Source of the DNA: a virus
Reading direction: 5' to 3' (one strand)
DNA length: 64,000 bases
Virus record (IMG/VR): IMGVR_UViG_3300036886_000043
Coordinates: 33,231 to 97,230 of that record
Both the position numbers and the translations under genes were made by a program. Of the stretch, positions 11,980-49,490 are shown piece after piece (position 1 is the first letter of the stretch; the number at the start of each line of letters is the position of its first letter). The notes below the pieces were generated by a model. It was not told the DNA's origin, made no database searches, and saw only the letters and a list, made by a program, of their open reading frames with translations.

Positions 11980-12063
11980 GCGGGATTGGCGAAACGGCAG
12001 CCGCGCCCGATTTAAGATCGGGTGTCTTAGGACGTGGGAGTTCAAGTCTCCCATCCCGCACCA
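11980..12063 (+). tRNA. trnL: tRNA-Leu(TAA)
   Basis: GCGGGAT/ATCCCGC; CCCGA-TTTAAGA-TCGGG; long variable arm; CCA. Confidence 0.95.
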
Positions 12064-12064
12064 T

Positions 12065-12141
12065 GTATCGGAAGGTAAAGTTTTGGAACCAGTGGTCCGC
12101 AAAACCACTTTTAGCCGGTGGGACTCCGGCCCGGTACTCCA
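12065..12141 (+). tRNA. trnC: tRNA-Cys(GCA), atypical
   Basis: GTATCGG/CCGGTAC, U73, GTGGT-CCGCAAA-ACCAC; T-loop TGGGACT; C33. Confidence 0.8.
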
Positions 12142-12153
12142 AAGTTTAGTAGT

Positions 12154-12232
12154 GCTCGCGTAGCCCAATTTGGCAGGAGGCACTTCATTCAAAACGAAGA
12201 CAGTGCTGGTTCAAATCCAGCCGCGAGTACCA
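12154..12232 (+). tRNA. trnL: tRNA-Leu(CAA), short variable loop
   Basis: GCTCGCG/CGCGAGT; loop TTCAAAA; variable region ACAGT. Confidence 0.9.
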
Positions 12233-12240
12233 AAATATGT

Positions 12241-12319
12241 GCCCCGTTAGCCCAATTGGCAGGAGGCGTCTGACTTAGGATCAGAACAGTGATGAGTTCG
12301 AATCTCTCACGGGGTACCA
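12241..12319 (+). tRNA. trnL: tRNA-Leu(TAG), short variable loop
   Basis: GCCCCGT/ACGGGGT; TCTGA-CTTAGGA-TCAGA; variable region ACAGT. Confidence 0.92.
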
Positions 12320-12328
12320 AAATTTAGA

Positions 12329-12357
12329 TTGCAACGGGTACCAATCTACTGTAAAAT
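12329..12357 (+). promoter_or_regulatory. promoter of the inserted endonuclease gene
   Basis: TTGCAA-17 nt-TAAAAT, 6 nt before ATG 12364. Confidence 0.75.
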
Positions 12358-12363
12358 ATTGGT

Positions 12364-12963
12364 ATGAATGGTGATTCGAGTATTTGCAATGGATGTGGTT
12401 TAAGTGAGCCAGAAGTGAGATTTCGATTGCGGAAGGCGAACGGGAAAACTTACAGAAAACACTTGTGTACAAAATGTGATGATGAATATCAAAAGAAGTA
12501 CACTAAACCTCAAGGCGTAAAAGATAGGAATAGAAAATCGTATCTGAAAAGAAAGGAGAGAAGAGCACGGGGAGAAATAGTCGAGATTTTCCTTCTTGAG
12601 GACTGTCGAAGAATTGACAGAAAAAAAGGTATCAAATCCGATTTAGACTCTGAATATATTGCGGAGATAATAAAGGATGGATGCGCGTATTGCGGAGATA
12701 TAGAATCACGCATTGGGCTTGATCGGATAGATAATTCACTGGGCCACATGAAGGGAAATGTTAACGCCTGTTGTATGAGATGTAATCTTATTCGTAGGGA
12801 TATGCCATACGAAGCATGGCTGATTGTAGCGCCCACGATGAAGATTGCGAGAGAATCAAAAGCGTTTGGGAATTGGAATGTGCTTTTTGGAAACAAGAAG
12901 AAAACGGAGCGCGGGCCGGACGATAAGGCAACGGGTTGCTACCCCGCACAGCCGCAAGGCTGA
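12364..12963 (+). CDS. HNH/His-Me-type homing endonuclease
   Basis: CxxC pairs; CAYCG...GLDRIDNSLGHMKGNVNACCMRCN; AT-rich insertion between tRNA genes. Confidence 0.85.
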   Translation: MNGDSSICNGCGLSEPEVRFRLRKANGKTYRKHLCTKCDDEYQKKYTKPQGVKDRNRKSYLKRKERRARGEIVEIFLLEDCRRIDRKKGIKSDLDSEYIAEIIKDGCAYCGDIESRIGLDRIDNSLGHMKGNVNACCMRCNLIRRDMPYEAWLIVAPTMKIARESKAFGNWNVLFGNKKKTERGPDDKATGCYPAQPQG

Positions 12964-12991
12964 CTGAGTTTGACTCTCAGGCGCTCCGCCA
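12906..12991 (+). tRNA. trnS: tRNA-Ser(GCT)
   Basis: GGAGCGC/GCGCTCC, G73, loop TTGCTAC, variable arm CAGCC-GCAA-GGCTG. Confidence 0.88.
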
Positions 12992-12995
12992 GTTC

Positions 12996-13080
12996 GGAAG
13001 GTACCGCTGAAAGGTCGGCAAACGGTCCTGAAAACCGTGGCTCCTTCGGGATGGGCGTTCGATTCGTCTACCTTCCGCCA
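12996..13080 (+). tRNA. trnS: tRNA-Ser(TGA)
   Basis: GGAAGGT(A)/(T)ACCTTCC; ACGGT-CCTGAAA-ACCGT; variable arm; C33. Confidence 0.9.
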
Positions 13081-13085
13081 AGTTT

Positions 13086-13172
13086 GGGAGTGATGCTCTG
13101 TAGGGAGAGCAGCAGGCCGTAACCCTGCCGTCACTTGTGGCATAGGGGGTTCGATTCCCTCCACTCCCACCA
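13086..13172 (+). tRNA. trnY: tRNA-Tyr(GTA)
   Basis: GGGAGTG/CACTCCC; GCAGG-CCGTAAC-CCTGC; variable arm; C33. Confidence 0.9.
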
Positions 13173-13175
13173 TAC

Positions 13176-13204
13176 TTGTCAACACGGAAGAGTAGTGGTA
13201 TACT
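13176..13204 (+). promoter_or_regulatory. internal promoter without leader peptide, upstream of the initiator tRNA
   Basis: TTGTCA-17 nt-(TG)TATACT. Confidence 0.8.
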
Positions 13205-13209
13205 GAAAT

Positions 13210-13284
13210 CGCGGGTTGGTAGCGCAGCGTCATACGTCAGGCTCATACCCTGAAGATCCGGTGCAAATCCGGTACCCGCAACCA
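13210..13284 (+). tRNA. trnfM: tRNA-fMet(CAT), initiator type
   Basis: C1.A72 mismatch (CGCGGGT/ACCCGCA); TCAGG-CTCATAC-CCTGA. Confidence 0.85.
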
Positions 13285-13285
13285 A

Positions 13286-13361
13286 GGTCACGTCGTCTAA
13301 CTGGAAGGATACTTCCCTGTCTAGGAAGCTGGCGCGGGTTCGATTCCCGTCGTGATCGCCA
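13286..13361 (+). tRNA. trnD: tRNA-Asp(GTC)
   Basis: GGTCACG/CGTGATC, G73; CTTCC-CTGTCTA-GGAAG. Confidence 0.93.
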
Positions 13362-13367
13362 AGTTTA

Positions 13368-13446
13368 GCCGATGCACTCTGTACTGGATTCGGAGCACTC
13401 CCCTTCAAGGAGTTGGATGCGAGTTCGATTCTCGTCGTCGGCGCCA
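13368..13446 (+). tRNA. trnE: tRNA-Glu(TTC)
   Basis: GCCGATG/CGTCGGC; ACTCC-CCTTCAA-GGAGT; C33. Confidence 0.88.
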
Positions 13447-13454
13447 AGTTTTAC

Positions 13455-13531
13455 GGGGTCACCGTCTAATTGGTCTGGACGCCAGATTCTCAATCTGGAA
13501 ACTGTGAGTTCGATCCTCACTGGCCCTACCA
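13455..13531 (+). tRNA. trnE: tRNA-Glu(CTC)
   Basis: GGGGTCA/TGGCCCT; CCAGA-TTCTCAA-TCTGG. Confidence 0.93.
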
Positions 13532-13540
13532 GAAAATGAT

Positions 13541-13569
13541 TTGACAGAAATTGCGAACGGCGGTACAGT
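13541..13569 (+). promoter_or_regulatory. promoter P2 of tRNA block 2
   Basis: TTGACA-17 nt-TACAGT. Confidence 0.85.
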
Positions 13570-13579
13570 AGAAAACGAG

Positions 13580-13648
13580 ATGAAAAACCGAGTCAATCAC
13601 GGATTTACACCAGCGACGGCGCAACCGACGCAGGGTAATCCTATGTAG
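13580..13648 (+). CDS. attenuator leader peptide 2 MKNRVNHGFTPATAQPTQGNPM
   Basis: contains a cognate codon for all 12 block-2 tRNAs; lies between promoter and terminator. Confidence 0.88.
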   Translation: MKNRVNHGFTPATAQPTQGNPM

Positions 13649-13674
13649 CGGCTCGTGGAGTTTGAAGCAAAGCG

Positions 13675-13705
13675 CCCACCGAGCCAATCAGCCGGTGGGT
13701 TTTTT
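13675..13705 (+). terminator. attenuator 2 intrinsic terminator
   Basis: CCCACCG...CGGTGGG-TTTTTT. Confidence 0.88.
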
Positions 13706-13713
13706 GTTGATGT

Positions 13714-13789
13714 TCCAGCGTAGCAAAAAGGTAATGCGCCGCACTGTTAATGCGGAAATGTGCAGGTTCGAGTCCTGCCGCTGGAGCCA
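13714..13789 (+). tRNA. trnN: tRNA-Asn(GTT)
   Basis: TCCAGCG/CGCTGGA; CCGCA-CTGTTAA-TGCGG. Confidence 0.95.
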
Positions 13790-13798
13790 GTTTGAAGT

Positions 13799-13873
13799 TG
13801 CCCGTTCGTTCATGTGGCAGGACGGCTGACTCTGGATCAGCGGAGCGAGGTTCAAGTCCTCGACGGGCAGCCA
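13799..13873 (+). tRNA. trnQ: tRNA-Gln(CTG)
   Basis: TGCCCGT/ACGGGCA; GCTGA-CTCTGGA-TCAGC. Confidence 0.95.
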
Positions 13874-13881
13874 AGTTTTAC

Positions 13882-13957
13882 AGGGAGATGGCCGAGCGGC
13901 TTAGGCGACAGCCTTTGGAACTGTCTCAGGTAGGTTCGACTCCTACTCTCCCTGCCA
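13882..13957 (+). tRNA. trnQ: tRNA-Gln(TTG)
   Basis: AGGGAGA/TCTCCCT; loop CTTTGGA. Confidence 0.93.
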
Positions 13958-13958
13958 T

Positions 13959-14034
13959 GCGGACGTAGCTCAATTGGTAGAGCACAGCGTTGCCAATGCT
14001 GAGGTTGCCGGATCGTTGCCGGTCGTTCGCTCCA
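13959..14034 (+). tRNA. trnG: tRNA-Gly(GCC)
   Basis: GCGGACG/CGTTCGC, U73; loop TTGCCAA; T-loop ATCGTTG. Confidence 0.93.
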
Positions 14035-14119
14035 AATTTTGGAGGTTGACATGCCGCACAGGTATCATTTCAATGCCGATCTCCGAGAAGTGTACAGAAG
14101 GCTGGCGGGACAATTTCGA

Positions 14120-14194
14120 GCACCGTTAGTTGAGTCGGCACAACACGACACTCGTAACGTCGAGGCTCCGGTTCGAGGCCGGGACGGTGCTCCA
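14120..14194 (+). tRNA. trnT: tRNA-Thr(CGT)
   Basis: GCACCGT/ACGGTGC; loop CTCGTAA. Confidence 0.9.
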
Positions 14195-14208
14195 GAATTG
14201 GAAGGTGA

Positions 14209-14748
14209 GTGATGAATTTGATGCGGAAGCCGGTATTGCAGTTGAATGCAAGCTACGAGCCGCTTCGCATCATCGCGGCAAGAAGGGCATTGACGCTCAT
14301 AACCAAGGGCGTAGCCGTGGTGGAAGTGCCAACCAGCACAGTAGTCTATCCTGGCATCTACTTGCCCTCAGTGATTCGGTTGCGGACTTACCGGCATGTG
14401 CCTATTAGGATGCAGGTGATGAGCCGCAAGAACATTCTCCTTCGGGATGGCGGCCGCTGCATGTATTGCGGACAGAGGTCAAACGAATTGACGCTTGACC
14501 ATGTGATTCCGCGTTCCCGTGGCGGATTGAATACGTGGGACAATCTTGTGGCTTGCTGCAAACGCGACAATCACAAGAAGAACGACAGGACTCCAGAGGA
14601 AGCGGGAATGAACTTGATTCACAGGCCGCTTCCGCAAACGATCCACACGCCGCGGTTTGTTCTACGGTCTATGGGTTTGGAAGTAAATGAGTGGAGCCCG
14701 TACTTGTGGGCCGACTCCGAAGGCGACAAGAAGTATGCGTTTAACTGA
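14209..14748 (+). CDS. HNH endonuclease (McrA/HNH_5-like)
   Basis: VLQLNASYEPL...LPSVIRL...RDGGRCMYCG...TLDHVIPRSRGG...WDNLVACCKRDNHKK. Confidence 0.93.
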   Translation: MMNLMRKPVLQLNASYEPLRIIAARRALTLITKGVAVVEVPTSTVVYPGIYLPSVIRLRTYRHVPIRMQVMSRKNILLRDGGRCMYCGQRSNELTLDHVIPRSRGGLNTWDNLVACCKRDNHKKNDRTPEEAGMNLIHRPLPQTIHTPRFVLRSMGLEVNEWSPYLWADSEGDKKYAFN

Positions 14749-14820
14749 GCCGGGTGAACATCGAATGTTGCGGGCGCTTGTATCGCTTGCTAGTGGGTTC
14801 GACTCCCACATCCGGCCCCA
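14749..14820 (+). tRNA. trnT: tRNA-Thr(TGT), compact fold
   Basis: GCCGGGT/ATCCGGC; D arm AACA-TCGAA-TGTT; 6-7-bp anticodon stem, loop CTTGTAT. Confidence 0.82.
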
Positions 14821-14830
14821 ACAAGTTCAT

Positions 14831-14905
14831 GGGGAATATCGTTCAGCGATAGGACGCTAAGTTGTGGCCTTAGTCACCGCAGTTTGATTCTGCGTATTCC
14901 CCCCA
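14831..14905 (+). tRNA. trnH: tRNA-His(GTG)
   Basis: G-1:C73; CTAAG-TTGTGGC-CTTAG. Confidence 0.92.
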
Positions 14906-14918
14906 AGTTTTAAGTAGT

Positions 14919-14993
14919 GGGCGTGTGGTGCTAATGGGAACACATCCGGCCTGCACCCGGAAGTTGAGAGTTCGATTCTCTCCATGTCCACCA
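14919..14993 (+). tRNA. trnA: tRNA-Ala(TGC)
   Basis: G3:U70; TCCGG-CCTGCAC-CCGGA; C33. Confidence 0.93.
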
Positions 14994-14999
14994 AGTTTT

Positions 15000-15075
15000 G
15001 CCGACTTAGCTGATGAGGTCATAGCGGTCGCCTGAAGAGCGATAGAAGCCCGCTCGATACGGGCAGTCGGCACCA
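15000..15075 (+). tRNA. trnF: tRNA-Phe(GAA)
   Basis: GCCGACT/AGTCGGC; loop CTGAAGA. Confidence 0.92.
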
Positions 15076-15076
15076 T

Positions 15077-15154
15077 CGGTGTGTAGCGTAGTCTGCTTAA
15101 CGCGCTCCGTTCGGGACGGAGAGATCGCAGGTCGAAATCCTGCCACGCCGACCA
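15077..15154 (+). tRNA. trnP: tRNA-Pro(CGG)
   Basis: CGGTGTG/CACGCCG; CTCCG-TTCGGGA-CGGAG. Confidence 0.93.
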
Positions 15155-15160
15155 GTTTAC

Positions 15161-15234
15161 CGGGGTGTAGTGTAAAGGAAACATCCGTGGCCTGGGACCA
15201 CGTGTTGGGCTTTCGAGATGCCCCACCCCGACCA
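15161..15234 (+). tRNA. trnP: tRNA-Pro(TGG)
   Basis: CGGGGTG/CACCCCG; CGTGG-CCTGGGA-CCACG; C33. Confidence 0.88.
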
Positions 15235-15240
15235 ATTTAC

Positions 15241-15315
15241 GGCCCGTTCGTTCAATGGACAGGACTTCGGATTACGAATCCGACAATCAGAGTTCGACTC
15301 TCTGGCGGGCTACCA
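15241..15315 (+). tRNA. trnR: tRNA-Arg(ACG)
   Basis: GGCCCGT/GCGGGCT; TCGGA-TTACGAA-TCCGA; A20. Confidence 0.95.
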
Positions 15316-15316
15316 C

Positions 15317-15345
15317 TTGCAAGAAAAGAAAAGTTGATGTACAGT
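15317..15345 (+). promoter_or_regulatory. promoter P3 of tRNA block 3
   Basis: TTGCAA-17 nt-TACAGT, 7 nt before the leader ATG. Confidence 0.82.
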
Positions 15346-15352
15346 GGAATTC

Positions 15353-15421
15353 ATGCAGATCAGGACCAAACACGGAATAACCAGAATGACCAAGCGGGTC
15401 ATTTGGGGGATCGTGTGTTGA
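15353..15421 (+). CDS. attenuator leader peptide 3 MQIRTKHGITRMTKRVIWGIVC
   Basis: contains a cognate codon for all 12 block-3 tRNAs; lies between promoter and terminator. Confidence 0.9.
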   Translation: MQIRTKHGITRMTKRVIWGIVC

Positions 15422-15447
15422 GGGTCTGAGCATTTTGGTACGCACAG

Positions 15448-15472
15448 ACCTTCGCTCAGGCGAGGGTTTTTT
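15448..15472 (+). terminator. attenuator 3 intrinsic terminator
   Basis: ACCTTCGC-TCAG-GCGAGGG-TTTTTT. Confidence 0.9.
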
Positions 15473-15488
15473 ATTGCTCTTTGAAAAT

Positions 15489-15563
15489 AGGGGAGTGCTG
15501 GCGGCACAGCGGTTGGTCTCCAAAACCAACGTCACGGCGGTTCGAGTCCGCTCTCCCCTGCCA
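15489..15563 (+). tRNA. trnW: tRNA-Trp(CCA), compact fold
   Basis: AGGGGAG/CTCCCCT, G73; GTTGGT-CTCCAAA-ACCAAC. Confidence 0.9.
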
Positions 15564-15568
15564 TTTTT

Positions 15569-15637
15569 GGCACGTACCCAAGGCGGGAAGCGATCCTCAT
15601 AAGATCGTAAACTGGTTCGAGTCCAGGCGTGCTACCA
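15569..15637 (+). tRNA. trnM: tRNA with CAT anticodon (probably elongator Met), 69 nt
   Basis: GGCACGT/GCGTGCT; GCGATC-CTCATAA-GATCGT; minimal D arm. Confidence 0.8.
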
Positions 15638-15642
15638 GTTTT

Positions 15643-15736
15643 GGGCGATAGCACCGGCCGTGCGGCGGAGTCTTATAAACTCTGGAGAGCGCCAGATTAG
15701 CGCAACGGGAAGGATCGACACCTTCATCGCCTACCA
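15643..15736 (+). tRNA. trnI: tRNA-Ile(TAT) with long variable arm
   Basis: GGGCGAT/ATCGCCT; CGGAGT-CTTATAA-ACTCTG; GCGC-CAGATTA-GCGC arm. Confidence 0.8.
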
Positions 15737-15739
15737 TGT

Positions 15740-15814
15740 GGGTCGCAGATGTTTTTGGCGGCATACCCGGCTCTTACCCGGAATGGCGGGGTTCGACTCC
15801 CCGGCGACCCACCA
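15740..15814 (+). tRNA. trnK: tRNA-Lys(CTT)
   Basis: GGGTCGC/GCGACCC; CCGG-CTCTTAC-CCGG. Confidence 0.9.
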
Positions 15815-15823
15815 TCTGTTTTC

Positions 15824-15897
15824 GGACTGCGAGTGTGATGGTGCATAACGCCCTTTTAAGGCGTTTGGATAGAGTTCGATTCTCTAGCGGTCCACCA
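15824..15897 (+). tRNA. trnK: tRNA-Lys(TTT)
   Basis: GGACTGC/GCGGTCC; ACGCC-CTTTTAA-GGCGT. Confidence 0.9.
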
Positions 15898-15898
15898 T

Positions 15899-15973
15899 GG
15901 CCCTATAGCTCAAGGGGATAGAGTGCGGTCTTCTAAGCCGTCGATCACCGTTCGACTCGGTGTAGGGCTCCCA
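15899..15973 (+). tRNA. trnR: tRNA-Arg(TCT)
   Basis: GGCCCTA/TAGGGCT; loop CTTCTAA; A20. Confidence 0.92.
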
Positions 15974-15978
15974 GTTTT

Positions 15979-16055
15979 GCCGCTGTATCTCTCCGGTTTC
16001 CTAAACCGGCAAGAGTAGTTGGATGACGCCGGTTCGACTCCGGCCAGCGGCCCCA
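15979..16055 (+). tRNA. trnR: tRNA-Arg(CCT) with no 5' D arm (rearranged core)
   Basis: GCCGCTG/CAGCGGC; CCGGT-TTCCTAA-ACCGG; perfect T arm; CCA. Confidence 0.8.
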
Positions 16056-16060
16056 GGTTT

Positions 16061-16138
16061 GCTGCCGTATTCGGTTCTGGTTCCGAACCAGAGGGCCGTA
16101 GATGGAGAAGGCAGGTTCGAGTCCTGTCGGCAGCGCCA
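16061..16138 (+). tRNA. trnR: tRNA-Arg(CCG) with no 5' D arm (rearranged core)
   Basis: GCTGCCG/CGGCAGC; TCTGG-TTCCGAA-CCAGA; canonical T arm; CCA. Confidence 0.8.
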
Positions 16139-16143
16139 GTTTA

Positions 16144-16219
16144 GCCGGGTTCGCCCAAAGGCTTAGGGCCGATGGTCTACACCCATCTGATAGGGGTTCG
16201 AGTCCTCTACCCGGCACCA
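16144..16219 (+). tRNA. trnV: tRNA-Val(TAC)
   Basis: GCCGGGT/ACCCGGC; GATGG-TCTACAC-CCATC; C33. Confidence 0.92.
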
Positions 16220-16224
16220 AGATT

Positions 16225-16298
16225 GTCGATGTAGCTCAGTGGTAGAGCACCGCAATGGTAATGCGGCGACGAGGGTCCGATTCCCTCCTTCGGCTCCA
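16225..16298 (+). tRNA. trnT: tRNA-Thr(GGT)
   Basis: TAGCTCAGTGGTAGAGC D arm; CCGCA-ATGGTAA-TGCGG. Confidence 0.92.
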
Positions 16299-16302
16299 TT
16301 TT

Positions 16303-16377
16303 GCCGATGTAGCTCAATGGCAGAGCATTCGCTTGATAAGCGAAAGGTCAGTGGATCAGTACCACTCATCGGCACCA
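16303..16377 (+). tRNA. trnI: tRNA-Ile(GAT)
   Basis: GCCGATG/CATCGGC; TTCGC-TTGATAA-GCGAA. Confidence 0.93.
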
Positions 16378-16383
16378 AGTTGA

Positions 16384-16458
16384 GCGGGATTAGCCAAGTG
16401 GAAAGGCAATGGGCTTCCAACCCATTATGCGTCGGTTCAACCCCGACATCCCGCTCCA
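16384..16458 (+). tRNA. trnG: tRNA-Gly(TCC)
   Basis: GCGGGAT/ATCCCGC, U73; ATGGG-CTTCCAA-CCCAT. Confidence 0.94.
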
Positions 16459-22684: not shown

Positions 22685-25600
22685 ATGGCAGACCAACAGA
22701 CTTGGAATCCAGTACCGGAACTCAAGCAGAAGTATCCGGGCTTGAAGGACTGGTCGGATGAGAAAATCTACAATAATTTGTCGGACCCGAATAAGTTTCG
22801 GTCTGCTTTCCCGCAGTACGCCAATCTTGGCGACGATGTAATCAAGCGGAACATTGACCATCTGAAGCCCTCAATCCAACCACAGGCCGCGCCAGCGAAT
22901 GTACAGGCTCCGGTTATGCCTTCAAAGGCGCCTGAGCAACGCCCACCGGATGAATTGAGGGCATGGACTCCCACTCCGCTTCAAGAAGCGTCTATCTGGT
23001 TTCGCAACACTCAGACCGGCAAGACTCTGGCGAATTCTTTTAACGATATTCGCCAAATGGCAAGCAGCGCGTGGACTAAAGCTCAAGAGCCGTTCGGCGG
23101 TGATCCTGAAGATGTTGAAAACTTGCGTAAGAAGCAAAACCAGTTCATTGATGACTATTTTCCAGAGAGTATTGCGGGAAGCAAAAAAGTCGCCTCTGCT
23201 GTAAGAGGAGGAGCTAAAGGGGCGCTCCAGTTTGGAGAAGAGCTGACCTCTCCGGTCCAGATCGGATTGATGGTCGGGACGTTTGGCGAGAGTGCTCTTG
23301 CTCGGACTGCGGCTTCGATGGGACTACCGAAGTTGGTCCCAGCGGCTCGGGTAATGGGAAAGCTAATTCAGGCTCAGTTCATCTCTCAGATGGTCGAAGG
23401 TGGATACACGAGCATTCGTGATTCCGTGAAGACCTATATTAGCGGGGATTGGGACACGGCGACACAGCAGGCGGTAGTCGGATTGGGTAGCCTACTGATG
23501 GCAAGGGCTGGCATCAGCCACGCTGAGGCTACAGAGAAAATACACGCCGACTTGGACAAGACCGCTGTCGAAAAGCACGGCCAGAAATTCAATAAGCTCT
23601 CTCCAGAAAATCAAGGTCTGGTTATCGAAGAAACTGTCAATCGTTCGCCAGAGTACAAGGCGATGATGGAGACGGTTGACGCCAAGAACGCCGAAGTCGC
23701 AGACAGCATTCAGAAAAAGCGGCAGATGCAAGTTGCACGCTACTCTGGAATCGCATGGGATCAGGCGTGGAATCCAGATGCCGCGCATCGGGCGGTAGAT
23801 GCTCTCCACGCGGAACGCGCTGAAACTGCGAGGAAGGAACAAGTACAAAAAGTCGTCGGAACAATCAGGGCCAGGGTCAAGCAGCGCACCGACGAGATCA
23901 AAGCGGAAAACGAGGAACGTCTGGCCGCTGCCCGTGAGGGTCGCGAAGAGAAGCGCAAGGCCGCGGCTGAGGATCGTGAATCCGTACAGCAAACCGCAGA
24001 GGAAATCATCAAAGGCAGAGATGAGACCTTCGCTGGACGACAGGCAATCGGTGAAATCCCAACTGAAGAGGAAATGTCGCGCCCAGTCGAGGCCGCAGTT
24101 GACAACTCAGGCCACGTCAGCTACCCGGTCCAATACTGGGGAGAGGAAAACAGGTTCGGAGTCGGAACTGACGGAGAGAGGCATTCGGTTTACCGTCAGA
24201 CTCCACGCGGAGTCGAGTGGCTGGACCGCAGCGGCAATTTCACTGAAACTCCAGAGGCGCTTTACTTCAATACCGACGACAAGACTTCAGATACAGTTGC
24301 AAGACTCTCTTCGCTGAAACTTGAGTCCGACGGCGTAGCAGCGCAGCCGGAAGCTACTGCCGAGCAAGTTAAGGACGCTGAGACGCTGGGCGAGATTCGC
24401 CGGCAGTTGATTGAAGGGGAGATCAACGCAGCCGAAGCGCAGAAACGCGCCGGCATCGCAGAGAAGACTACTCTTCCAGACGTGTATGCGGCGGCTCGGG
24501 AAGGCCGTCTCAGTGGACCCTTCAGTGAGAAGTCTGCAACGGATTACGAACATGAAGTTGTGTTGGAACTACTCAACAACGGCGCCAGCGAAGAAGAAGT
24601 CCAGGCGACACTTGAAAGCCTGCCAGCACTCGCAAGGGTGGACATCGAAAGAAACCTTCATCACGTCTACCAGCCGGGAGACTATATCATCTCGAAGCGT
24701 GACGTGAAGTGGACACTTGACGCAAAAGGCTTGTTGCATCCTTCGGATGGTGGAATATCTGTACCTTTAATGAAGCGGGGAACGTACTCGAATCAAGCTA
24801 TGCAACTTGCGGCTTCGGGCAGGGTTGGGTATGGTACGAAGACCCGGCTGGAGCGGAGAGCCGACTTCTCAAGAAACCGCGACATCAAGAGGCAAATCGC
24901 AGTCCGGCAAGAAGAGTTTGACCGGGAGATGCGGGTTGCTCAACAGAACGCCGGCCTGGAAGCAATTCCACAGGAAGGCGACGTTCACTACGAAGGGGAG
25001 CGTGAAGAACGCCGCAAGCAGTTCCTTGGCAGACCTCCGGTTCCCGAGGAAACTCACAAGGCAAGAGTAGAACGCAGGGCGGCTTACAAAGCCTCGAACG
25101 ATCCAAACAACATCATCAACCAACTGGCAAAGCAGTTTGGAGTGACACCGGATGAAGTGATGCGGATTGGACTGTCTGAGAGGACTCCGACCATCGAGGC
25201 AAAGGTGGCTTCGCTTGAAGTCGGGGACAGGGTTTCAGATCCATTCAGGCCGGACAGACCTTGGATTGTCGAGGAGAAGAATGGCCAAACCTACCTGCGG
25301 TCTGGACAGGCCAACCCGATTCCGTTTGACAGGCTGAATCCGAGCCCTCGCGTTTTCCAAATTTTGGAAAAAGGCGACATCACGCATGACCGCGACTGGA
25401 CCGCAGAGGAGAAGGAAAAAGTCGCGTTTGAGAAACCGTACCTGGTTCACCAAAGATTCCTCGTAGATGGCGTTCGGGACCGGATGGAGGGCAAAGTCGT
25501 TGACCCAGAGCCGAAGACACAGGTGCAGGCCGAAACGCAGGCGGCCGCGGCAGAGAGCCGGAAAGCCGCAGCCCACTCAGTGGCAGTGGAAGCCGCGGAG

Positions 25601-28600
25601 AAGGCCACAAATCCAGAGATTGCCCATGACGACACTCCAGAGAAGGCAGTAGCCAAGGCAGAAGAACTCGCAAGGAAGGCCGAAGACGCGAAGAAGGTAG
25701 CGAAGGAAGCTGTAGCTCAATCCGCGGAAGCAAAGGCTAAAACTGGACCGAAGGGGAACTTCCCGCAGCGTTATGTCCCAAATTATCCTCTTGGGAAACC
25801 GACGACTATAGATCAAAATGGCCGTCAGTTAAAAGCGCACTATCGTCTTGTTCCAGTGGGGGCGGTAATCATTTCGCATACTTGGAAGGGTGACACATTG
25901 GTGCGGACGCCGGAGAATGAATATCCGAAGGTCTTGCAGCCAAGGGAGCCAAACGAAAGAACGATTCTCCAAAGACGCATCGACGCGCAGCGGTTTTCTC
26001 GATCTGAAGATGGAAGAATTTCTGGTTACAACTTCGACAAGTACGCAAACAAGACGATTGATGCTATGTCGGGGCCGACAGTAGTTGAGCATGGTCTCCG
26101 GTCGGTAGCTGGTACGGGTAGATTCCAGCGGTTCCTGATGCACATTCAAGTTCTCAAAGAGATACCAGACGTTGAAGAGAGGGAGGGCGCCCTTGCCGTC
26201 CTGAAGGAAAGGTTAGTTAAACTCGCCGAAGATTCAGGATTTAGGGTTTATCCAGAGGACGGACAATTTCACATTGTTGTTAGAGAATTAGACGATCCAA
26301 TTCAGACAATGGAAGAGGCAACCAAACTCGGACTTCTCTTTAACGAATCAGAAGCCGACAACATCAGCGACTCACAGAAAGGATTGGTCTACAGCCGCAG
26401 TTTCGATCAGGATGTAATCAACAAAATCGGTCGCATGGTGGAAGGCTCTGAAGGCGGAATGAACGCGGCCATGCGTGACAATCCTCTCTTCTTCGCGGAG
26501 GTTGTCGCGTCGAGATTCGATATTCCGGTATCGCAGGCGTCCGCATGGTTCGTGAAAGATAAGATGGGCAACGACGTTCTTACTGAAGAGGGAGAACGTC
26601 TGTTCCGCAGAGCCATGAACGGGTACGTCATACAAGACCCGGACTTACTGGCCGGCGTGGAGAATGAGGTTGCTTACAGGGCTTTTGAGAATGCCATCGG
26701 GTACATCTCGCGGCTGAAGGCGTTCCCCGAGTTGGACCTTACCGGAAAGATCAAGGAGTCTCTCGAAGCGGCGCGGTTGACAGGGAGCGTCAATCGGGAT
26801 TTGGCGGCAAGCGGCGATCCTTGGGATGCGGTCTATCAGCCGAGCCAGATTGACTTGGCTGGAATGGAAGAAGAACCGCCGCCGGAACCGGATCGAATGA
26901 CGGAGACTTTATGGAGATCACTCAATGCCTCTAAGGTGGCGGCTCCCCGCGTATTCAGCGACCGGATGAAGCGGTGGATTTCAGATGAAGATACTCAGGC
27001 CGGTATGTTTGATTCAACAGAGAAGGCGCTGGAGAAACCAGTTGACAAGTTCAACAGGGTATTCGCTCCAGAGTTGAAGCAAGTCGCTCTACGGCGCAAT
27101 AAGGGGACGCCCAGAGAGGGAACACCGGACGGATGGATGCTTTCTCAGACCGAGTACGATGCGGCTATGCAGGGCCGTGAAGTGAGCGACGAAGAGAGGG
27201 TAGAGGAGAAGCCGGAAGCGACTCCAAAATTCGAGCACATGGATCTCGTGACGGTAGTTCGTGGGCCTGGAGATTTGACCACGAACGTACCGGGATGGGT
27301 CTCCGATGTCCTTCCAGACGGAAGATTGAAAGTTGTCCCCGACAGTAAACTTCACGGCGGAATGATGACCGTTCCGGCTGAGTGGGTCGTTAAGAGGGAA
27401 GAGACTCCAAAATTTGGACCTCCGCCCAAGGCCGCATCCACCGTTGAAGTTGGGAAGCGTGTTACGTTCACCCCGACAAACTTTAATCACAATGAAATAG
27501 TCGGCGTAGTGCGAGATACCATTACCAGTACGTCTGGAGCCAAAGGCTATCAAATTGTCGATGATGCAGGCATCGAGCATAGGGTGTGGGAGAAAGATGG
27601 GACAATCGGCGCAGAGACGAAGGCGGTAGATCAAAAAGCGATCAACGGTCTCAATGACGAAGAAAGAAGTTTGCGGAAGCGGCAGGCGGTTTTGGAGGCC
27701 CAAGTCAAGAAGCCTTCTGGAATGATTCCTCCAGCTATTACGTCCGAACTAAACGTCAAGCGTAGCGCCGAGTTACATGATATTCAGAAGCGCCTCGATG
27801 CGATTATCGATGAACGGCGAAAGTTAATGAAGGGCGGCATCAAACCCCCGCCCGAGGCCGCATCTCCAGCGGTTGTCGCAGACCGCAAGATAGCAGCAGA
27901 GAAGACAGAGCAGGGGTACATCACCCCTCACACCTTTAAGGAAATGTTGAATGCTTTCCCGGTAACCAAGGAGAATGCTGGAACTATATACGACACTGCT
28001 AAGGCTTTGGCGGCAGCGAGATGGGAGCGCCGCAAACCGGAGGGAGTGGAGCATAAAGACGCCCTAGCATGGGTATTGAAAGAAATTGGCTTCAAGGGTA
28101 TCGAAAAGGGAGACGACCCTCGTCATCGCGGGGAATATGACTTTGCGACCGGGGTTATGCGGCTAAACAAAGCCGCAGACAAAACGACGGCTATTCACGA
28201 GTTCATCCATGCAATTTCTCCCCTTCTCGACGAAGAGGAGTGGGAACAAATCGATACAATCAAGGTCAATAAGGCTGCTTACAAGAGGGAATACGGAAAA
28301 GATTGGGCCTACACAGGTCAAAACGAAAGGATGGAAAAACTGGCTTATGGAAGCGAGAAATTCTTTCGTGACGAAAATGCGGTGGACTTTCAGCCAGGAT
28401 TTGAACTGCGGAAAGTCCTCAAAGACATCAAAGAAATGTTCATCTCCGTCTATCGTAAACTGCAAAGTGATCCTCTATCTCCGTTCAAACTCAGCGACGA
28501 CTTCAGGCAGTGGATGGCAGACAACCTCGGAATTACCGGCTTCGATGTCGCGGACGATTGGCGTGAGGAAGTTAAGAAGGCCAGAGCAGCAGAGAAAAAG

Positions 28601-31600
28601 ATTGTTAGGCCGGAAGAGCAGCCGCATCCCGTGGTCACATTGGCAAGAGAGCTTGGAGGAACGGGACTAAGGGAATCAATCGATGGAAAAGTTGTCGATG
28701 AGGTTGGGGACCGCGTAGACCCGAAGAAGCCGGTTGTGGTAATCATGTTCCCATCCGAAGAGGAGGCGACTTCGGCAGTGAGCCGAATTGCCGATGGCAA
28801 GGACAAGATTAACGGCGCCGAACTGATTCATGGGAAAGACGGAACCTGGGCGATGAAGATCAGCGCTGCGACGAAGATTCCGCGGGGAAGTTTGTTCCAA
28901 GAGTTGCCAAAAAGTGAAATTATGCTGGCAAACAGACGGCCAAATGTCGTTGTTCGCCAACTGAAAGACATCGATGGCAATGTACTTGGACAAATTGTTG
29001 AACCCTATGATGGGACAGAGGAAGGAGCAATTAAAGCTGCTCGTATAACATACGACAAAATGATTAGACTGCCACGTTACGGTATGTCGGGGATGAGTAG
29101 AGTTGCGGCTACAGATGCAGAAGGAACCCCGAAATGGATGATTTCTCCCTATAGCAGTTCCGCCTACAAAGAAAGCATAGCGGAAATTGGCACAGATGAA
29201 GCTCGTGAGATGTTCGATTTTCCAGAGAAGGTAGGATCGAGAACAAGACGTGTTGATACACGCGCTTTACTGGCTAAGTGGGACGAAGAAGCAAAACAGG
29301 CAATAGAAGCGAAGAAAAAAGATTTTCTCGAAAAGACGGCGCAGCGTTCACCGATTGCTCCGCCTTCTGCTCATCCATCTGCGGATGTTATGACGATTGC
29401 CGAGCGTCATCCCGGCCTTCAACTCGAAGACCTTGAGAAGCGGCTGCGCGAAACACCATCGTACAAAACATTTGAGCGCCGGTTGGTTCAAGGCCAGATT
29501 GACAGACTCAAGGCGAGAATCAGGAACGAAGCAGGGCTCAATGAACCGGAGCCGCAGCGTGATCCTGAATTGCCAAAACAAGTATTGCAAGAGGTGAAAA
29601 ATGCCCAAGCATCCGACAGAGGAAGAACAGCGAATGATGACGCTCCTGGGATTTCAAAGCCTCCGCGAGTTGGAGGAATTCCTAAACCTCCCCAGTTGGG
29701 GGTGTCAGGATATGCAGGAGCCAAGCGTGGAGGGCCAACTCCAAGAAGCAGCGTACCAAGAGCGCCAGTAAACCTTGAGAACGTCAAGCCGGTGACTCTG
29801 GAGCCGCTGGCAGGCGTCCGCGGTGAGCCGGTAGGAATGACCACTGGCGAGAAGTTCGACCAGAAGGCGTGGGTTGAGAGAAAGAAAAAAGGTGGTATAG
29901 CTGAGGGCACGCCGTATCCTACGTGGGCACTTGAGCATAAGACTGCATCGCAATTGATGAGCGGACAGCCAGTAGTTGTCCAGACCGTGATGAGTGCGTT
30001 GGAACAAGGAGATGGTGTTGTCGTCGTGACGCCTCCTGGCACGGGGAAATCGAAATATGTTGGTCCGGCTATCATCAAGGAATACTTGCGTAAGAAACCA
30101 GACGCGAACATCCTAAATGTGTCGATGAATAAGCGTCTGCTTAAAGAAGCAAAGAAGAGTGCTGCAAACAATTTCGGACTTGACTATGATCTTGATCCCC
30201 CAAGTGGTGAGCCGGGAATCTATTGTGTGAGTTTTATGGGGATGCTAAACAACGAGATTTACAAGAATACGAAGTGGGATTTGGTGTTAGTAGACGAGAG
30301 CGGTGGGGCTCGAAGGGCGCATGACGAAAATACGCAGTGGGGTCCAATGTTGATGGATGTGGTTGCTAACTCAGAGAAGGCTGTCTACATGAGCGCCACT
30401 CCCTTCCACTCCCCAAATGAATACTTTTATATCTACGATAAGCTGAATCTCGGGCCGAAGGGACAGTTCGACAAGTGGATTCAGGAGAACTTCGCTCACG
30501 AGAAGATTGGAGACAAGATCGTTGCGCGTCTCGACCCCGGCAAACAGGCGAAGTTGAGAGAGCAGTTAATCGCGGATGGCCGGTTTGTTTCTCAGGCAAT
30601 CTCGTATGACGGCTATAACGCGCATTTTGGAGTAGTGCCGGTCACTGACCACATGAAGCGCGGCCTCGACCGCATCAGAGAAGGGTTTGACAGGGCCAGG
30701 GATCAGTTTGTGCGGATGGGCAAGCAGGGGCTCGCAAGGAAAGCCGCAGCGTTTGAGGCGGTTTACACGAAGAACTTCCTTGAGCGCGAGAGACTGCCGC
30801 AAGCGATCGAACTCGCAAAACAGGCAAGAGAGCAGGGCTGGAGAGTCCTCTTCTTCTCTGAGCACACGGCAGATGATTTGTTCCGCAGAGAGAGAACCGA
30901 AGGGGAAGAACCGGGCACCTACCAGCAACTTGACGATGCGATGGGAGGACAACTCTCGAAGATCATTCCTGCGTACCCGAGCATCTACAACGAACTCTAT
31001 GCGGAGTTTGGCGATAAGGTTGGAGACTACAGCGGCCGTGGAAATACCGATGCGGCTCGTGAAAAGACTCGCACTGATTTCCTCAAGGGCGAAGTTCCTA
31101 TGATGTATACCTCGTATGCCGGCGGCGGCATTGGGGTTGATATGCACGATGCGGACTACCCCGAGTTGAACGTCAAGGGCGGAAGCAAGCCGATAGTCGC
31201 AATCTACCTTGGACCGCCGTACTCGGGCGTGTTGCTTGAGCAGGCGATGGGCAGGCCGTGGCGGTTTGGCGTCAAGAGCGACGTTCACGCTGTCTTCCTT
31301 GCAACGGACTCGGAGCCGGATATTCGCTTGATGCAGACGAAGGTTGGACCCCGCATGAAGGCGCTGAGGGCCGCAGTTTTGGGAGAGAGAGACTCTCTTG
31401 GAAATGTGATGTCCACATACACCGACGAAGAGAAAGTGAGGGAGCGTCAAGACCAGTTGGCTTATGCCGAAGGCAACGAAGTGAAGGTGAACGCGACTCA
31501 GTTCCAAGTCCGCAGCAAACAGAGGAACGTGGGCATTCAAGATTGGTCTGCAATCACTTTCCCATCGGCTGAAGAAGCAAAGAATAAAGGCATGAAATAT

Positions 31601-49479: not shown

Positions 49480-49490
49480 GAGGGACAAGT

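What the first reader, a model, noticed from the sequence alone, without database searches (positions are those of the whole stretch)
15979..16138. Two tRNA-Arg genes with the D-loop relocated 3' of the anticodon arm
Both Arg(CCT) and Arg(CCG) have perfect acceptor, anticodon and T arms plus CCA. Only 7-8 nt lie between acceptor and anticodon stem (TATCTCT; TATTCGGT), so no D hairpin can form. An 18-nt segment after the anticodon arm pairs back with that strand, with compensatory changes (CTCT/AGAG and TC/GA; CGGT/GCCG and TTC/GAA). It loops out TAGTTGGAT or TAGATGGA, which reads like an Arg D-loop with GG followed by A (G18, G19 and the ArgRS identity element A20). The same architecture in two divergent sequences argues against decay. 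Inference: a topologically rewired L-shaped tRNA that standard scanners would miss or call pseudo, possibly resistant to host tRNA nucleases.
Basis: partly seen in the sequence, partly recalled or inferred. Interest (0 to 1): 0.82.

Follow-up and report, generated by a model that had tools for sequence, protein, structure and literature searches.

The report
Two phage arginine tRNAs, rewired D-arm
These two phage genes are very probably working arginine tRNAs that are not cloverleaves: one strand of the D-stem and the whole D-loop sit after the anticodon arm and pair back around it, a conserved design that gene finders miss and that I found in no paper.

Summary
Window 15979-16055 (anticodon CCT) and 16061-16138 (CCG) have perfect acceptor, anticodon and T arms plus an encoded CCA. 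They have no D hairpin. ARAGORN and Rfam's tRNA model miss both.

They are not decayed genes. I collected 80 relatives (78 distinct) from 60 phage, prophage and bacterial tRNA-array loci, including cultured Salmonella phage Felix O1, where the gene is unannotated.

- **Helix:** a 3-bp helix joins the 5' linker to the segment after the anticodon arm. It is 98.7% paired, with compensatory changes at all three pairs.
- **D-loop:** what follows reads as a complete D-loop (A14, R15, G18, G19, A20, A21) and then N48.
- **Tertiary partners:** R15 covaries with N48, and both A19 variants carry U56. The core therefore looks like a cyclic permutation of the cloverleaf that keeps the L-shape.
- **Anticodons:** 77 of 78 distinct sequences carry Arg anticodons. 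Within arrays they fill the Arg anticodons that canonical genes leave open (2 overlaps against 16.5 expected).

Nuclease resistance is untested.

This scan has noted the same design before on other DNA. Seven literature searches found no description of it.

The parts
15979..16055 (+). Rewired tRNA-Arg(CCU) gene with encoded CCA; reads AGG
   Evidence: Sequence; 86.3 bits to family model R1, against 34 bits or less for ordinary tRNAs; missed by ARAGORN and RF00005
15986..15987 (+). U8 and A9 of gene 1
   Evidence: Both invariant in 78 of 78 family members
15989..15991 (+). Gene 1: 5' strand of the rebuilt D-stem (CTC; takes the place of positions 23-25)
   Evidence: Pairs with 16013-16015; helix 98.7% paired, with double changes in all 3 pairs
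16000..16002 (+). Gene 1 anticodon CCT in loop TTCCTAA
   Evidence: the only CCU-anticodon tRNA in the 97-kb phage genome
16013..16015 (+). Gene 1: 3' strand of the rebuilt D-stem (GAG; takes the place of positions 10-12), after C44' and the AA bulge (16010-16012)
16016..16027 (+). Gene 1: relocated D-loop and N48. U13', A14, G15, UU, G18, G19, A20, UG, A21, C48
   Evidence: Family conservation: G18 and A21 in 78/78, A14 in 77/78, A20 in 74/78. R15/N48 covary; here G15-C48
16028..16044 (+). Gene 1 T arm (GCCGG-TTCGACT-CCGGC)
16061..16138 (+). Rewired tRNA-Arg(CCG) gene with encoded CCA; reads CGG
   Evidence: Sequence; 72.5 bits to R1; missed by ARAGORN and RF00005
16072..16074 (+). Gene 2: 5' strand of the rebuilt D-stem (CGG). 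The linker has one extra U at 16070
   Evidence: Pairs with 16096-16098
16083..16085 (+). Gene 2 anticodon CCG in loop TTCCGAA
   Evidence: the only CCG-anticodon tRNA in the phage genome
16096..16098 (+). Gene 2: 3' strand of the rebuilt D-stem (CCG), after G44' and the GG bulge (16093-16095)
16099..16110 (+). Gene 2: relocated D-loop and N48. U13', A14, G15, AU, G18, G19, A20, GA, A21, G48
   Evidence: G15 with G48 is the second commonest 15/48 combination in the family (12 of 78)
16111..16127 (+). Gene 2 T arm (GCAGG-TTCGAGT-CCTGT)
15899..15973 (+). Canonical tRNA-Arg(UCU) in the slot that holds a rewired Arg(UCU) in relatives L006, L021, L031 and L013

Best explanation
Both genes encode functional arginine tRNAs that read AGG (anticodon CCU) and CGG (anticodon CCG). 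Their core is a cyclic permutation of the universal cloverleaf.

The chain order is:
1. Acceptor stem, then U8 and A9.
2. The strand that normally forms positions 22-25, then position 26.
3. The complete anticodon arm.
4. A position-44-like base and a 2-nt bulge.
5. The strand that normally forms positions 10-13.
6. A full D-loop: A14, R15, N16, N17, G18, G19, A20, N, N, A21.
7. N48, which leads directly into the T arm.

The D-stem therefore closes around the anticodon arm instead of closing its own hairpin, and it stacks on the anticodon stem as usual. The usual tertiary contacts can all form: U8-A14-A21, R15-N48, G18-psi55 and G19-C56. The molecule would then keep the L-shape and the ArgRS identity elements (A20, C35, G36 or U36).

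The acceptor/T minihelix, the elbow and the anticodon stem-loop are unchanged. These are the surfaces used by RNase P, EF-Tu and the ribosome.

Shown here: conservation of the family, covariation of the helix, covariation of the tertiary partners, Arg-only anticodons, and complementarity with canonical Arg genes.

Inferred: processing, arginylation, the three-dimensional fold, and any selective advantage of the rewiring.
For: 1. **Family.** Pattern scans found 27 viral contigs and 7 true bacterial or MAG contigs. Looser scans and model R1 raised this to 80 members, 78 distinct, in 60 loci. Members score 44-90 bits and ordinary tRNAs 34 bits or less.
2. **Rebuilt D-stem.**
   - It is 100% paired in the MAFFT alignment of 39 sequences.
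   - It is 98.7% paired in the model-fitted alignment of 78 distinct sequences.
   - All three pairs show changes on both sides (6, 28 and 22 cells). Types seen include CGG/CCG, CTC/GAG, CAG/CTG, CAC/GTG, TCC/GGA, CCG/CGG and CGA/TCG.
   - None of 500 shuffles reached the observed values, and slid controls collapsed.
   - RNAalifold predicts the same helix on the MAFFT alignment.
3. **Tertiary signature.**
   - U8, A9, G18 and A21 are invariant. A14 and U13' are present in 77/78 and A20 in 74/78.
   - A15 goes with U48 in 60 of 61 cases. G15 goes with G48 or C48 in 17 of 17. Fisher p = 2.9e-16, not corrected for phylogeny.
   - The two members with A19 (L031:6312, L102:1046) are the only two with U56.
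4. **Decoding role.**
   - 77 of 78 anticodons are Arg: TCT 33, CCT 27, CCG 11, ACG 3, TCG 3. A scan with the anticodon left free found only Arg.
   - In 36 arrays that also hold canonical Arg genes, rewired anticodons duplicate a canonical one twice, against 16.5 expected. None of 20000 shuffles gave so few.
   - In syntenic arrays (Lys-Lys-Arg-Arg-Arg-Val), each of the three Arg slots holds a canonical or a rewired gene depending on the phage.
5. **This phage.** These two genes are its only CCU and CCG tRNAs. CGG and AGG make up 22.9% and 20.5% of its Arg codons.
6. **Felix O1.** It carries an unannotated member with anticodon UCU at AF320576:25951-26029. Its genome paper expected an AGA tRNA and found none with tRNAscan-SE (PMC3185647).
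Against: - No RNA-level evidence: no RNA run holds this phage, so transcription, end processing and charging are not shown.
- No structure was computed or solved. The L-shape is inferred from covariation and from textbook tRNA geometry.
- The pattern scans fixed some positions: GTAT or GTAC, U33, C35, TAR, and GGA in the first two scans. Conservation at those positions is partly built in. Only the later scans and the members found by the model are free of that bias for GGA and C56.
- The 19-56 covariation rests on two sequences.
- The Fisher and shuffle figures are not corrected for shared ancestry.
- Four members lack A20. One relative has a UAU (Ile-type) anticodon, so the design is not strictly limited to Arg.
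Confidence: 0.8

Rival explanations
1. These are D-armless tRNAs of the mitochondrial kind. The D-arm is simply lost, the long 3' segment is a floppy connector, and the molecule works with a loose, non-canonical fold.
For: There is no contiguous D hairpin, and the linker is only 7-8 nt. D-armless tRNAs that function are known in metazoan mitochondria (PMC7609411).
Against: Total length is normal at 74-75 nt before CCA. The 3' segment is not floppy. It contains a covarying helix strand and an almost invariant D-loop motif (A14, G18, G19, A21). R15/N48 and A19/U56 covariation point to the canonical elbow and core. The T-loop is the standard TTCRANY.
Confidence: 0.07
2. These are tRNA-like RNAs that do not decode. 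They could act as decoys or sponges for a tRNA-binding nuclease or enzyme, or as regulatory RNAs carried in the array.
For: No aminoacylation or ribosome data exist. Phage tRNAs are known to neutralise tRNA-targeting defences (PMC11464382, listed).
Against: The anticodons fill the Arg gaps left by canonical genes in each array (2 overlaps against 16.5 expected). Slots are interchangeable with canonical Arg genes. A20, C35, the 7-nt loop with U33 and the encoded CCA are all kept. In this phage they cover 43% of Arg codons. A decoy would not need this bookkeeping.
Confidence: 0.08
3. These are decaying pseudo-tRNAs or assembly artefacts left in the array.
For: Gene finders reject them, and Rfam tRNA gives no hit.
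Against: There are 78 distinct sequences in 60 loci, with 97.6% of stem cells paired and hundreds of compensatory changes. The same DNA is present in peat metagenome runs from 2018 to 2025. A contig of a 2025 run from another study covers the stretch without a difference.
Confidence: 0.02
4. The permutation exists only at gene level and is undone at RNA level. The transcript would be cut and religated into a normal cloverleaf, as with the permuted tRNA genes of Cyanidioschyzon.
For: Permuted tRNA genes that are repaired through a circular intermediate exist in some algae (PMC3978253, listed).
Against: Here the 5' and 3' acceptor strands are already at the ends, followed by CCA. Restoring a cloverleaf would need two internal cuts and two ligations. 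I saw no bulge-helix-bulge motif in the sequences I read, and the hosts are bacteria. The helix that covaries is the rewired one.
Confidence: 0.02

Closest known systems
Canonical class I bacterial and phage tRNA-Arg (Rfam RF00005), for example this array's own Arg(UCU) at 15899-15973 and Arg(ACG) at 15241-15315
   Same: 7-bp acceptor stem, 5-bp anticodon stem with a 7-nt loop and U33, and a 5-bp T stem with a TTCRANY loop. U8, A14, R15, G18, G19, A20, A21 and N48 are present, total length is the same, and CCA is encoded. The genes occupy the same slots in homologous arrays and carry the same Arg anticodon repertoire.
   Different: The order of the core segments differs. The 22-25 strand comes before the anticodon arm, and the 10-13 strand plus D-loop come after it. 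There is no D hairpin and no ordinary 4-5 nt variable loop. RF00005 and ARAGORN do not recognise the genes.
Metazoan mitochondrial D-armless tRNAs (for example mt-tRNA-Ser(AGY/UCU); reviewed in PMC7609411)
   Same: No contiguous D hairpin. A short connector lies between the acceptor and anticodon stems.
   Different: The mitochondrial forms are shortened, lack the G18/G19 D-loop, and adopt a looser fold. The phage family keeps full length, a complete D-loop and covarying tertiary partners.
Circularly permuted tRNA genes of Cyanidioschyzon and other algae (PMC3978253)
   Same: The linear order of tRNA segments in the gene departs from the cloverleaf order through a permutation.
   Different: In the algal genes the whole molecule is permuted in the gene, and processing restores a normal cloverleaf RNA. 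Here only the internal core (positions 10-48) is permuted. The ends are normal, and the mature RNA itself is expected to be permuted.
Allo-tRNAs and other non-7/5 tRNAs from metagenomes (PMC5389517)
   Same: Natural, conserved departures from the standard cloverleaf, found in phage and metagenome data and missed by standard models.
   Different: Allo-tRNAs change the stem lengths (8/4 or 9/3) and have long variable arms, but they keep the cloverleaf order. The family here keeps 7/5 and changes the connectivity.

Membership tests
Canonical cloverleaf tRNA (Rfam RF00005) | 7-bp acceptor stem, 5-bp anticodon stem with a 7-nt loop and U33, 5-bp T stem with a T-loop | tested here: met
   these stems are 97.7-99.2% paired across 78 sequences, and U33 is invariant
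Canonical cloverleaf tRNA (Rfam RF00005) | Contiguous D hairpin (10-13 / loop / 22-25) between the acceptor and anticodon stems | tested here: not met
   Only 7-8 nt lie there. The covarying partner of that strand lies 3' of the anticodon arm
Canonical cloverleaf tRNA (Rfam RF00005) | Score at or above the family's gathering threshold (29 bits) | tested here: not met
   No RF00005 hit at E <= 10; only RF01852 hits of 23.9 and 27.7 bits, below its threshold of 47
Canonical cloverleaf tRNA (Rfam RF00005) | Core tertiary partners U8-A14, R15-N48, G18-psi55, G19-C56 | tested here: met
   The bases are present and conserved. 15/48 and 19/56 covary. Physical contact was not tested
tRNA-Arg identity | A20 in the D-loop, C35, G36 or U36 (E. 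coli-type ArgRS identity set, from established knowledge) | tested here: met
   Both genes have A20, C35 and U36 or G36. In the family A20 is present in 74/78 and an Arg anticodon in 77/78
tRNA-Arg identity | Charged with arginine by ArgRS | not testable with these tools
   No RNA run holds the phage. This needs a bench assay
Mitochondrial-type D-armless tRNA | Loss of the D-loop/T-loop elbow contact and reduced length | tested here: not met
   Length is 74-75 nt. G18 is invariant, and A19 co-occurs with U56
Class II tRNA (long variable arm) | Variable region longer than 10 nt that forms its own hairpin | tested here: not met
   The 18-nt segment has no conserved self-pairing. Its 5' part pairs with the linker
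Permuted tRNA gene restored by processing | 3' half encoded upstream of the 5' half, with processing motifs at the junction | tested here: not met
   The acceptor 5' and 3' strands are at the gene ends, followed by CCA
   86.3 and 72.5 bits to R1. Both genes were in the training set, so this match is by construction. Independent members found by the model share the layout

The most novel reading that the evidence does not exclude
The rewiring is adaptive rather than a tolerated accident. Moving half of the D-stem and the D-loop behind the anticodon arm would keep everything that ArgRS, EF-Tu and the ribosome need. It would remove the contiguous D hairpin that some host or rival-phage factor recognises on tRNA-Arg, such as a tRNA-targeting nuclease or a modification or quality-control enzyme. 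Phages would then have a private, attack-proof arginine decoder.
Probability: 0.2. Interest if true: 0.95.

Novelty: new variant of a known kind. Interest (0 to 1): 0.85.

Why it matters
The cloverleaf order of tRNA segments is treated as universal outside organelles.

- **Basic biology.** A natural, widespread and evolutionarily maintained tRNA whose core is cyclically permuted, yet keeps the tertiary signature of the L-shape, would show that the fold rather than the connectivity is what translation requires.
- **Annotation.** These genes are systematically missing from phage tRNA inventories. Felix O1's long-missing AGA tRNA is one of them, so codon-usage and tRNA analyses of phages are biased for arginine.
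- **Engineering.** The design offers a natural scaffold for tRNA engineering.
- **Experiment.** A cultured phage carries a member, which opens a direct test of whether phages alter tRNA architecture to escape tRNA-directed defences.

Tried and rejected
- **INPHARED blastn:** the stretch gave no match. It is too divergent and short for BLAST, so patterns and a covariance model were needed.
- **Chance hits:** the genome-contig scan gave three (L037, L042, L043). They fail acceptor and T-stem pairing and were discarded.
- **Structure-only Python scan of all loci:** the non-Arg hits were mis-registered ordinary tRNAs or random sequence.
tested and rejected.
- **Sole host tRNA?** No.
  - Devosia and Aquamicrobium each have a canonical Arg(UCU) as well. 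The Devosia copy lies beside phage tail genes.
  - The two Acidobacteriota MAGs tested (a Bryobacterales and an Acidiferrales genome) each have a canonical solitary Arg(CCU) elsewhere.
- **Common origin of canonical and rewired genes in one slot:** I compared them by eye for shared stems and saw no obvious similarity, so in-place conversion can be neither shown nor excluded.
- **RNA evidence:** no RNA holder is listed for this phage. Laying four DNA runs showed only presence and related variants.
- **Literature:** seven full-text searches and the 2020 review of non-canonical tRNAs describe nothing like this architecture. Subscription-only papers were not searchable.

Full report
**Setting.** The window is bases 33231-97230 of a 97,230-bp IMG/VR virus record with direct terminal repeats.
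- The same DNA is held by peat metagenome runs from 2018 to 2025.
- All of its tRNA genes lie in one array. ARAGORN of them, at window 11980-16458.
- The finding occupies the only 170-bp hole in the last block, between Arg(tct) ending at 15973 and Val(tac) starting at 16144.

**Observation.**
- Each has a perfect 7-bp acceptor stem, a 5-bp anticodon stem with a 7-nt loop (anticodons CCT and CCG), a 5-bp T stem with a TTCGANT loop, a discriminator base and an encoded CCA.
- Only 7 or 8 nt lie where the 17-nt D arm should be, and 18 nt lie where 4-5 nt of variable loop should be.
- The spacers are 5 nt, as for neighbouring genes.
- ARAGORN calls neither gene.
- Rfam's tRNA model gives nothing even at E <= 10. 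There are only sub-threshold tRNA-Sec hits of 23.9 and 27.7 bits against a threshold of 47.
- The single-sequence folds give the acceptor stem, the T arm and an anticodon stem extended through a 2-nt bulge by pairing of the linker with the 3' segment.

**A family, not an accident.** A relative of the phage, found through the 1113-aa protein upstream of the array (L006), has three such genes in a row (UCU, CCU, CCG) at the same place. I then ran several scans.
- *Architecture pattern.* It did not specify the acceptor, T or linker helices. My own estimate from its information content was less than one chance hit. It found 27 viral contigs, and almost all had 7/7 acceptor and 5/5 T-stem pairing.
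- *Bacterial genomes.* The same pattern over 185,579 bacterial genomes gave 10 stretches. Seven are true members: Devosia, Aquamicrobium, three Bryobacter-like MAGs, an Acidiferrales MAG and a 1.5-kb contig binned as Micrarchaeota. Three are chance hits that fail the stems.
- *Free anticodon.* A scan with the anticodon left free found only Arg anticodons.
- *Covariance model R1.* Built from 39 distinct members, it separates members (44-90 bits) from ordinary tRNAs (34 bits or less).
- *Looser scans.* Two scans left the D-loop and position 56 free. With model searches they brought the set to 80 members, 78 distinct, in 60 loci (alignment A2).

**Structure.**
- *Helix.* On the MAFFT alignment, the three pairs between linker positions 4-6 and the strand after the anticodon arm are paired in 39 of 39 sequences, with changes on both sides at every pair.
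  - RNAalifold predicts the same helix unprompted.
  - On A2 the helix is 98.7% paired, with 6, 28 and 22 doubly changed cells.
  - Types seen include CGG/CCG, CTC/GAG, CAG/CTG, CAC/GTG, TCC/GGA, CCG/CGG and CGA/TCG.
  - None of 500 shuffles reached the observed values, and sliding the partner by one to three columns drops pairing to about 40%.
- *Neighbouring positions.* The base next to the helix and its opposite number pair in only 41% of sequences, much like positions 26/44 of ordinary tRNAs. A 2-nt bulge follows, usually NA.
- *D-loop.* After the helix come U, then A (77/78), R, N, N, G (78/78), G, A (74/78), two or three variable bases, an invariant A, and one last base before the T stem.
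- *Numbering.* Read against the standard numbering, this is 13, A14, R15, 16, 17, G18, G19, A20, 20a/b, A21 and N48. The 5' linker is U8, A9 (both invariant), then 22-25 and 26.

**Tertiary partners.**
- *15 and 48.* The third base of the loop and the last base before the T stem covary as 15 and 48 do. A goes with U in 60 of 61 cases. G goes with G or C in 17 of 17. Fisher p = 2.9e-16, not corrected for phylogeny.
- *19 and 56.* The only two members with A in place of G19 (L031:6312-6385 and L102:1046-1119) are the only two with U in place of C56 in the T-loop. A canonical Arg(CCU) in a related array (L019) shows the same A19/U56 swap.
- *Reading.* I take the core to be a cyclic permutation of the 10-48 segment. 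The new order is 22-26, anticodon arm, 44, bulge, 10-13, 14-21, 48.
- *Geometry.* From textbook tRNA geometry this is plausible. The linker strand runs into the anticodon stem exactly as 22-26 does. The strand leaving position 43 continues the stack as 10-13 does. Position 21 lies next to 48, and 8/9 lie next to 22/23. This step is inference, because no structure was computed.

The proposed TC/GA and TTC/GAA pairing would reuse a base of the real helix. Across the family it is 53.8% paired, the same as shuffled columns.

**Function.**
- *Anticodons.* The counts are TCT 33, CCT 27, CCG 11, ACG 3, TCG 3 and TAT 1.
- *Complementarity.* I ran ARAGORN on every locus and compared anticodons.
  - In the 36 loci that also hold canonical Arg genes, 50 rewired entries duplicate a canonical anticodon only twice, against 16.5 expected.
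  - None of 20000 shuffles gave so few.
- *Slot swapping.* Within one syntenic array type (Trp-Met-Ile-Lys-Lys-Arg(UCU)-Arg(CCU)-Arg(CCG)-Val-Thr-Ile-Gly), each Arg slot holds a canonical or a rewired gene depending on the phage.
  - UCU is canonical in the window, L038, L019 and L020, and rewired in L006, L021, L031 and L013.
  - CCU is canonical in L019 and L020, and rewired in the window and five others.
  - CCG is canonical in L013, and rewired in the window and six others.
- *This phage.* The two genes are its only CCU and CCG tRNAs. CGG and AGG make up 22.9% and 20.5% of Arg codons in its long ORFs.
- *Conclusion.* This is how interchangeable decoders behave, not decoys or wrecks. Processing and arginylation remain inferred.

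**Distribution.**
- *Hosts.* In Devosia the gene lies beside phage tail genes. Devosia and Aquamicrobium both also have a canonical Arg(UCU).
- *A bacterial array.* In one Bryobacterales MAG the array lies on a 437-kb contig, among a histidine kinase, an oxidoreductase and regulator genes. No phage structural genes lie within 20 kb, and that genome has a canonical Arg(CCU) elsewhere. The design therefore also occurs in accessory tRNA arrays of bacteria.
- *Felix O1.* This cultured Salmonella phage has a member with anticodon UCU at AF320576:25951-26029 (63.9 bits). It is not annotated in the record, and a predicted ORF overlaps it. The genome paper found 22 tRNAs with tRNAscan-SE and remarked that an Arg(AGA) tRNA would have been expected (PMC3185647).
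- *ARAGORN.* It overlaps only 5 of the 80 members, always as an over-long call of 86-92 nt.

**Known or new.** Seven full-text searches and the 2020 review of non-canonical tRNAs turned up nothing on this layout.
- The nearest known things are ordinary tRNA-Arg, mitochondrial D-armless tRNAs, gene-level permuted tRNAs that are repaired by processing, and allo-tRNAs. Each differs in a defining respect (see the membership table).
- This scan's own earlier notes describe the same design in other genomes, including Felix O1-type phages. These are unreviewed AI notes. I re-derived the family here and checked the Felix O1 claim myself.
- I class the finding as a new variant of a known kind: a tRNA, but with non-cloverleaf connectivity.

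**What remains open.** Why arginine, and why rewire at all? Canonical and rewired Arg tRNAs coexist in the same arrays. A blanket need to hide all Arg tRNAs from a nuclease is therefore unlikely, although a factor specific to one isoacceptor is not excluded. A single origin followed by anticodon switching within the Arg box, with identity held by A20 and C35, would explain the Arg bias. That idea is inference.

Noticed in passing
window 15353-15421 and 15446-15469: A 22-codon ORF (MQIRTKHGITRMTKRVIWGIVC) lies just upstream of this tRNA block. It uses AGG, AGA and CGG once each, the three Arg codons read by the block's three Arg tRNAs. It also uses ATA, AAA, AAG, TGG, ACC, GGA and ATC. A terminator-like hairpin with a T run follows it.
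   Followed up: partly
L109:396-472 and L124:1214-1290: A relative with the same rewired layout (43.8 bits to R1) has anticodon loop CTTATGA (UAU, Ile-type, with G37) and GGT instead of GGA in the D-loop. The design is therefore not strictly limited to Arg.
   Followed up: partly
window 15643-15736; also L006:19758-19851, L038:5589-5680, L040:5450-5544, L041:6006-6097: ARAGORN's tRNA-Ile(tat) is 92-95 nt long in this array and in several related arrays. That is far longer than a class I tRNA, and the extra length is conserved.
   Followed up: no
window 12065-12153, 12996-13076, 13215-13280, 15568-15636: The array has more tRNA-like genes that ARAGORN or RF00005 miss or score poorly. There is a sub-threshold tRNA-Sec-model hit at 12996-13076 (34 bits), a weak tRNA hit at 13215-13280 (22.8 bits), a 69-nt Met, and a 90-nt gap after Leu(taa). 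The true gene count is probably above 28.
   Followed up: no
window 14209-14748: An HNH endonuclease ORF (Pfam HNH_5, E = 1e-14) sits inside the tRNA array.
   Followed up: partly
L019:5646-5722 (- strand): A canonical Arg(CCU) in a related array has A19 in the D-loop together with U56 in the T-loop. This is the same tertiary swap seen in two rewired members.
   Followed up: partly
L041 and flanks L187, L188 (contig of 436,879 bp): An array of at least 24 tRNAs with a rewired Arg(CCU) lies in a bacterial-looking chromosomal context in a Bryobacterales MAG. Neighbours include a histidine kinase, a GFO/IDH/MocA oxidoreductase and an AAA/TPR regulator. No phage structural genes lie within 20 kb.
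   Followed up: partly
L031:2182-2255: ARAGORN calls a tRNA with anticodon TCA (labelled SeC) in a related phage array. It may be a UGA suppressor.
   Followed up: no
window 22685-34117 and 49443-55652: There are two very long + strand ORFs, of 3810 aa and 2069 aa. I did not examine either.
   Followed up: no
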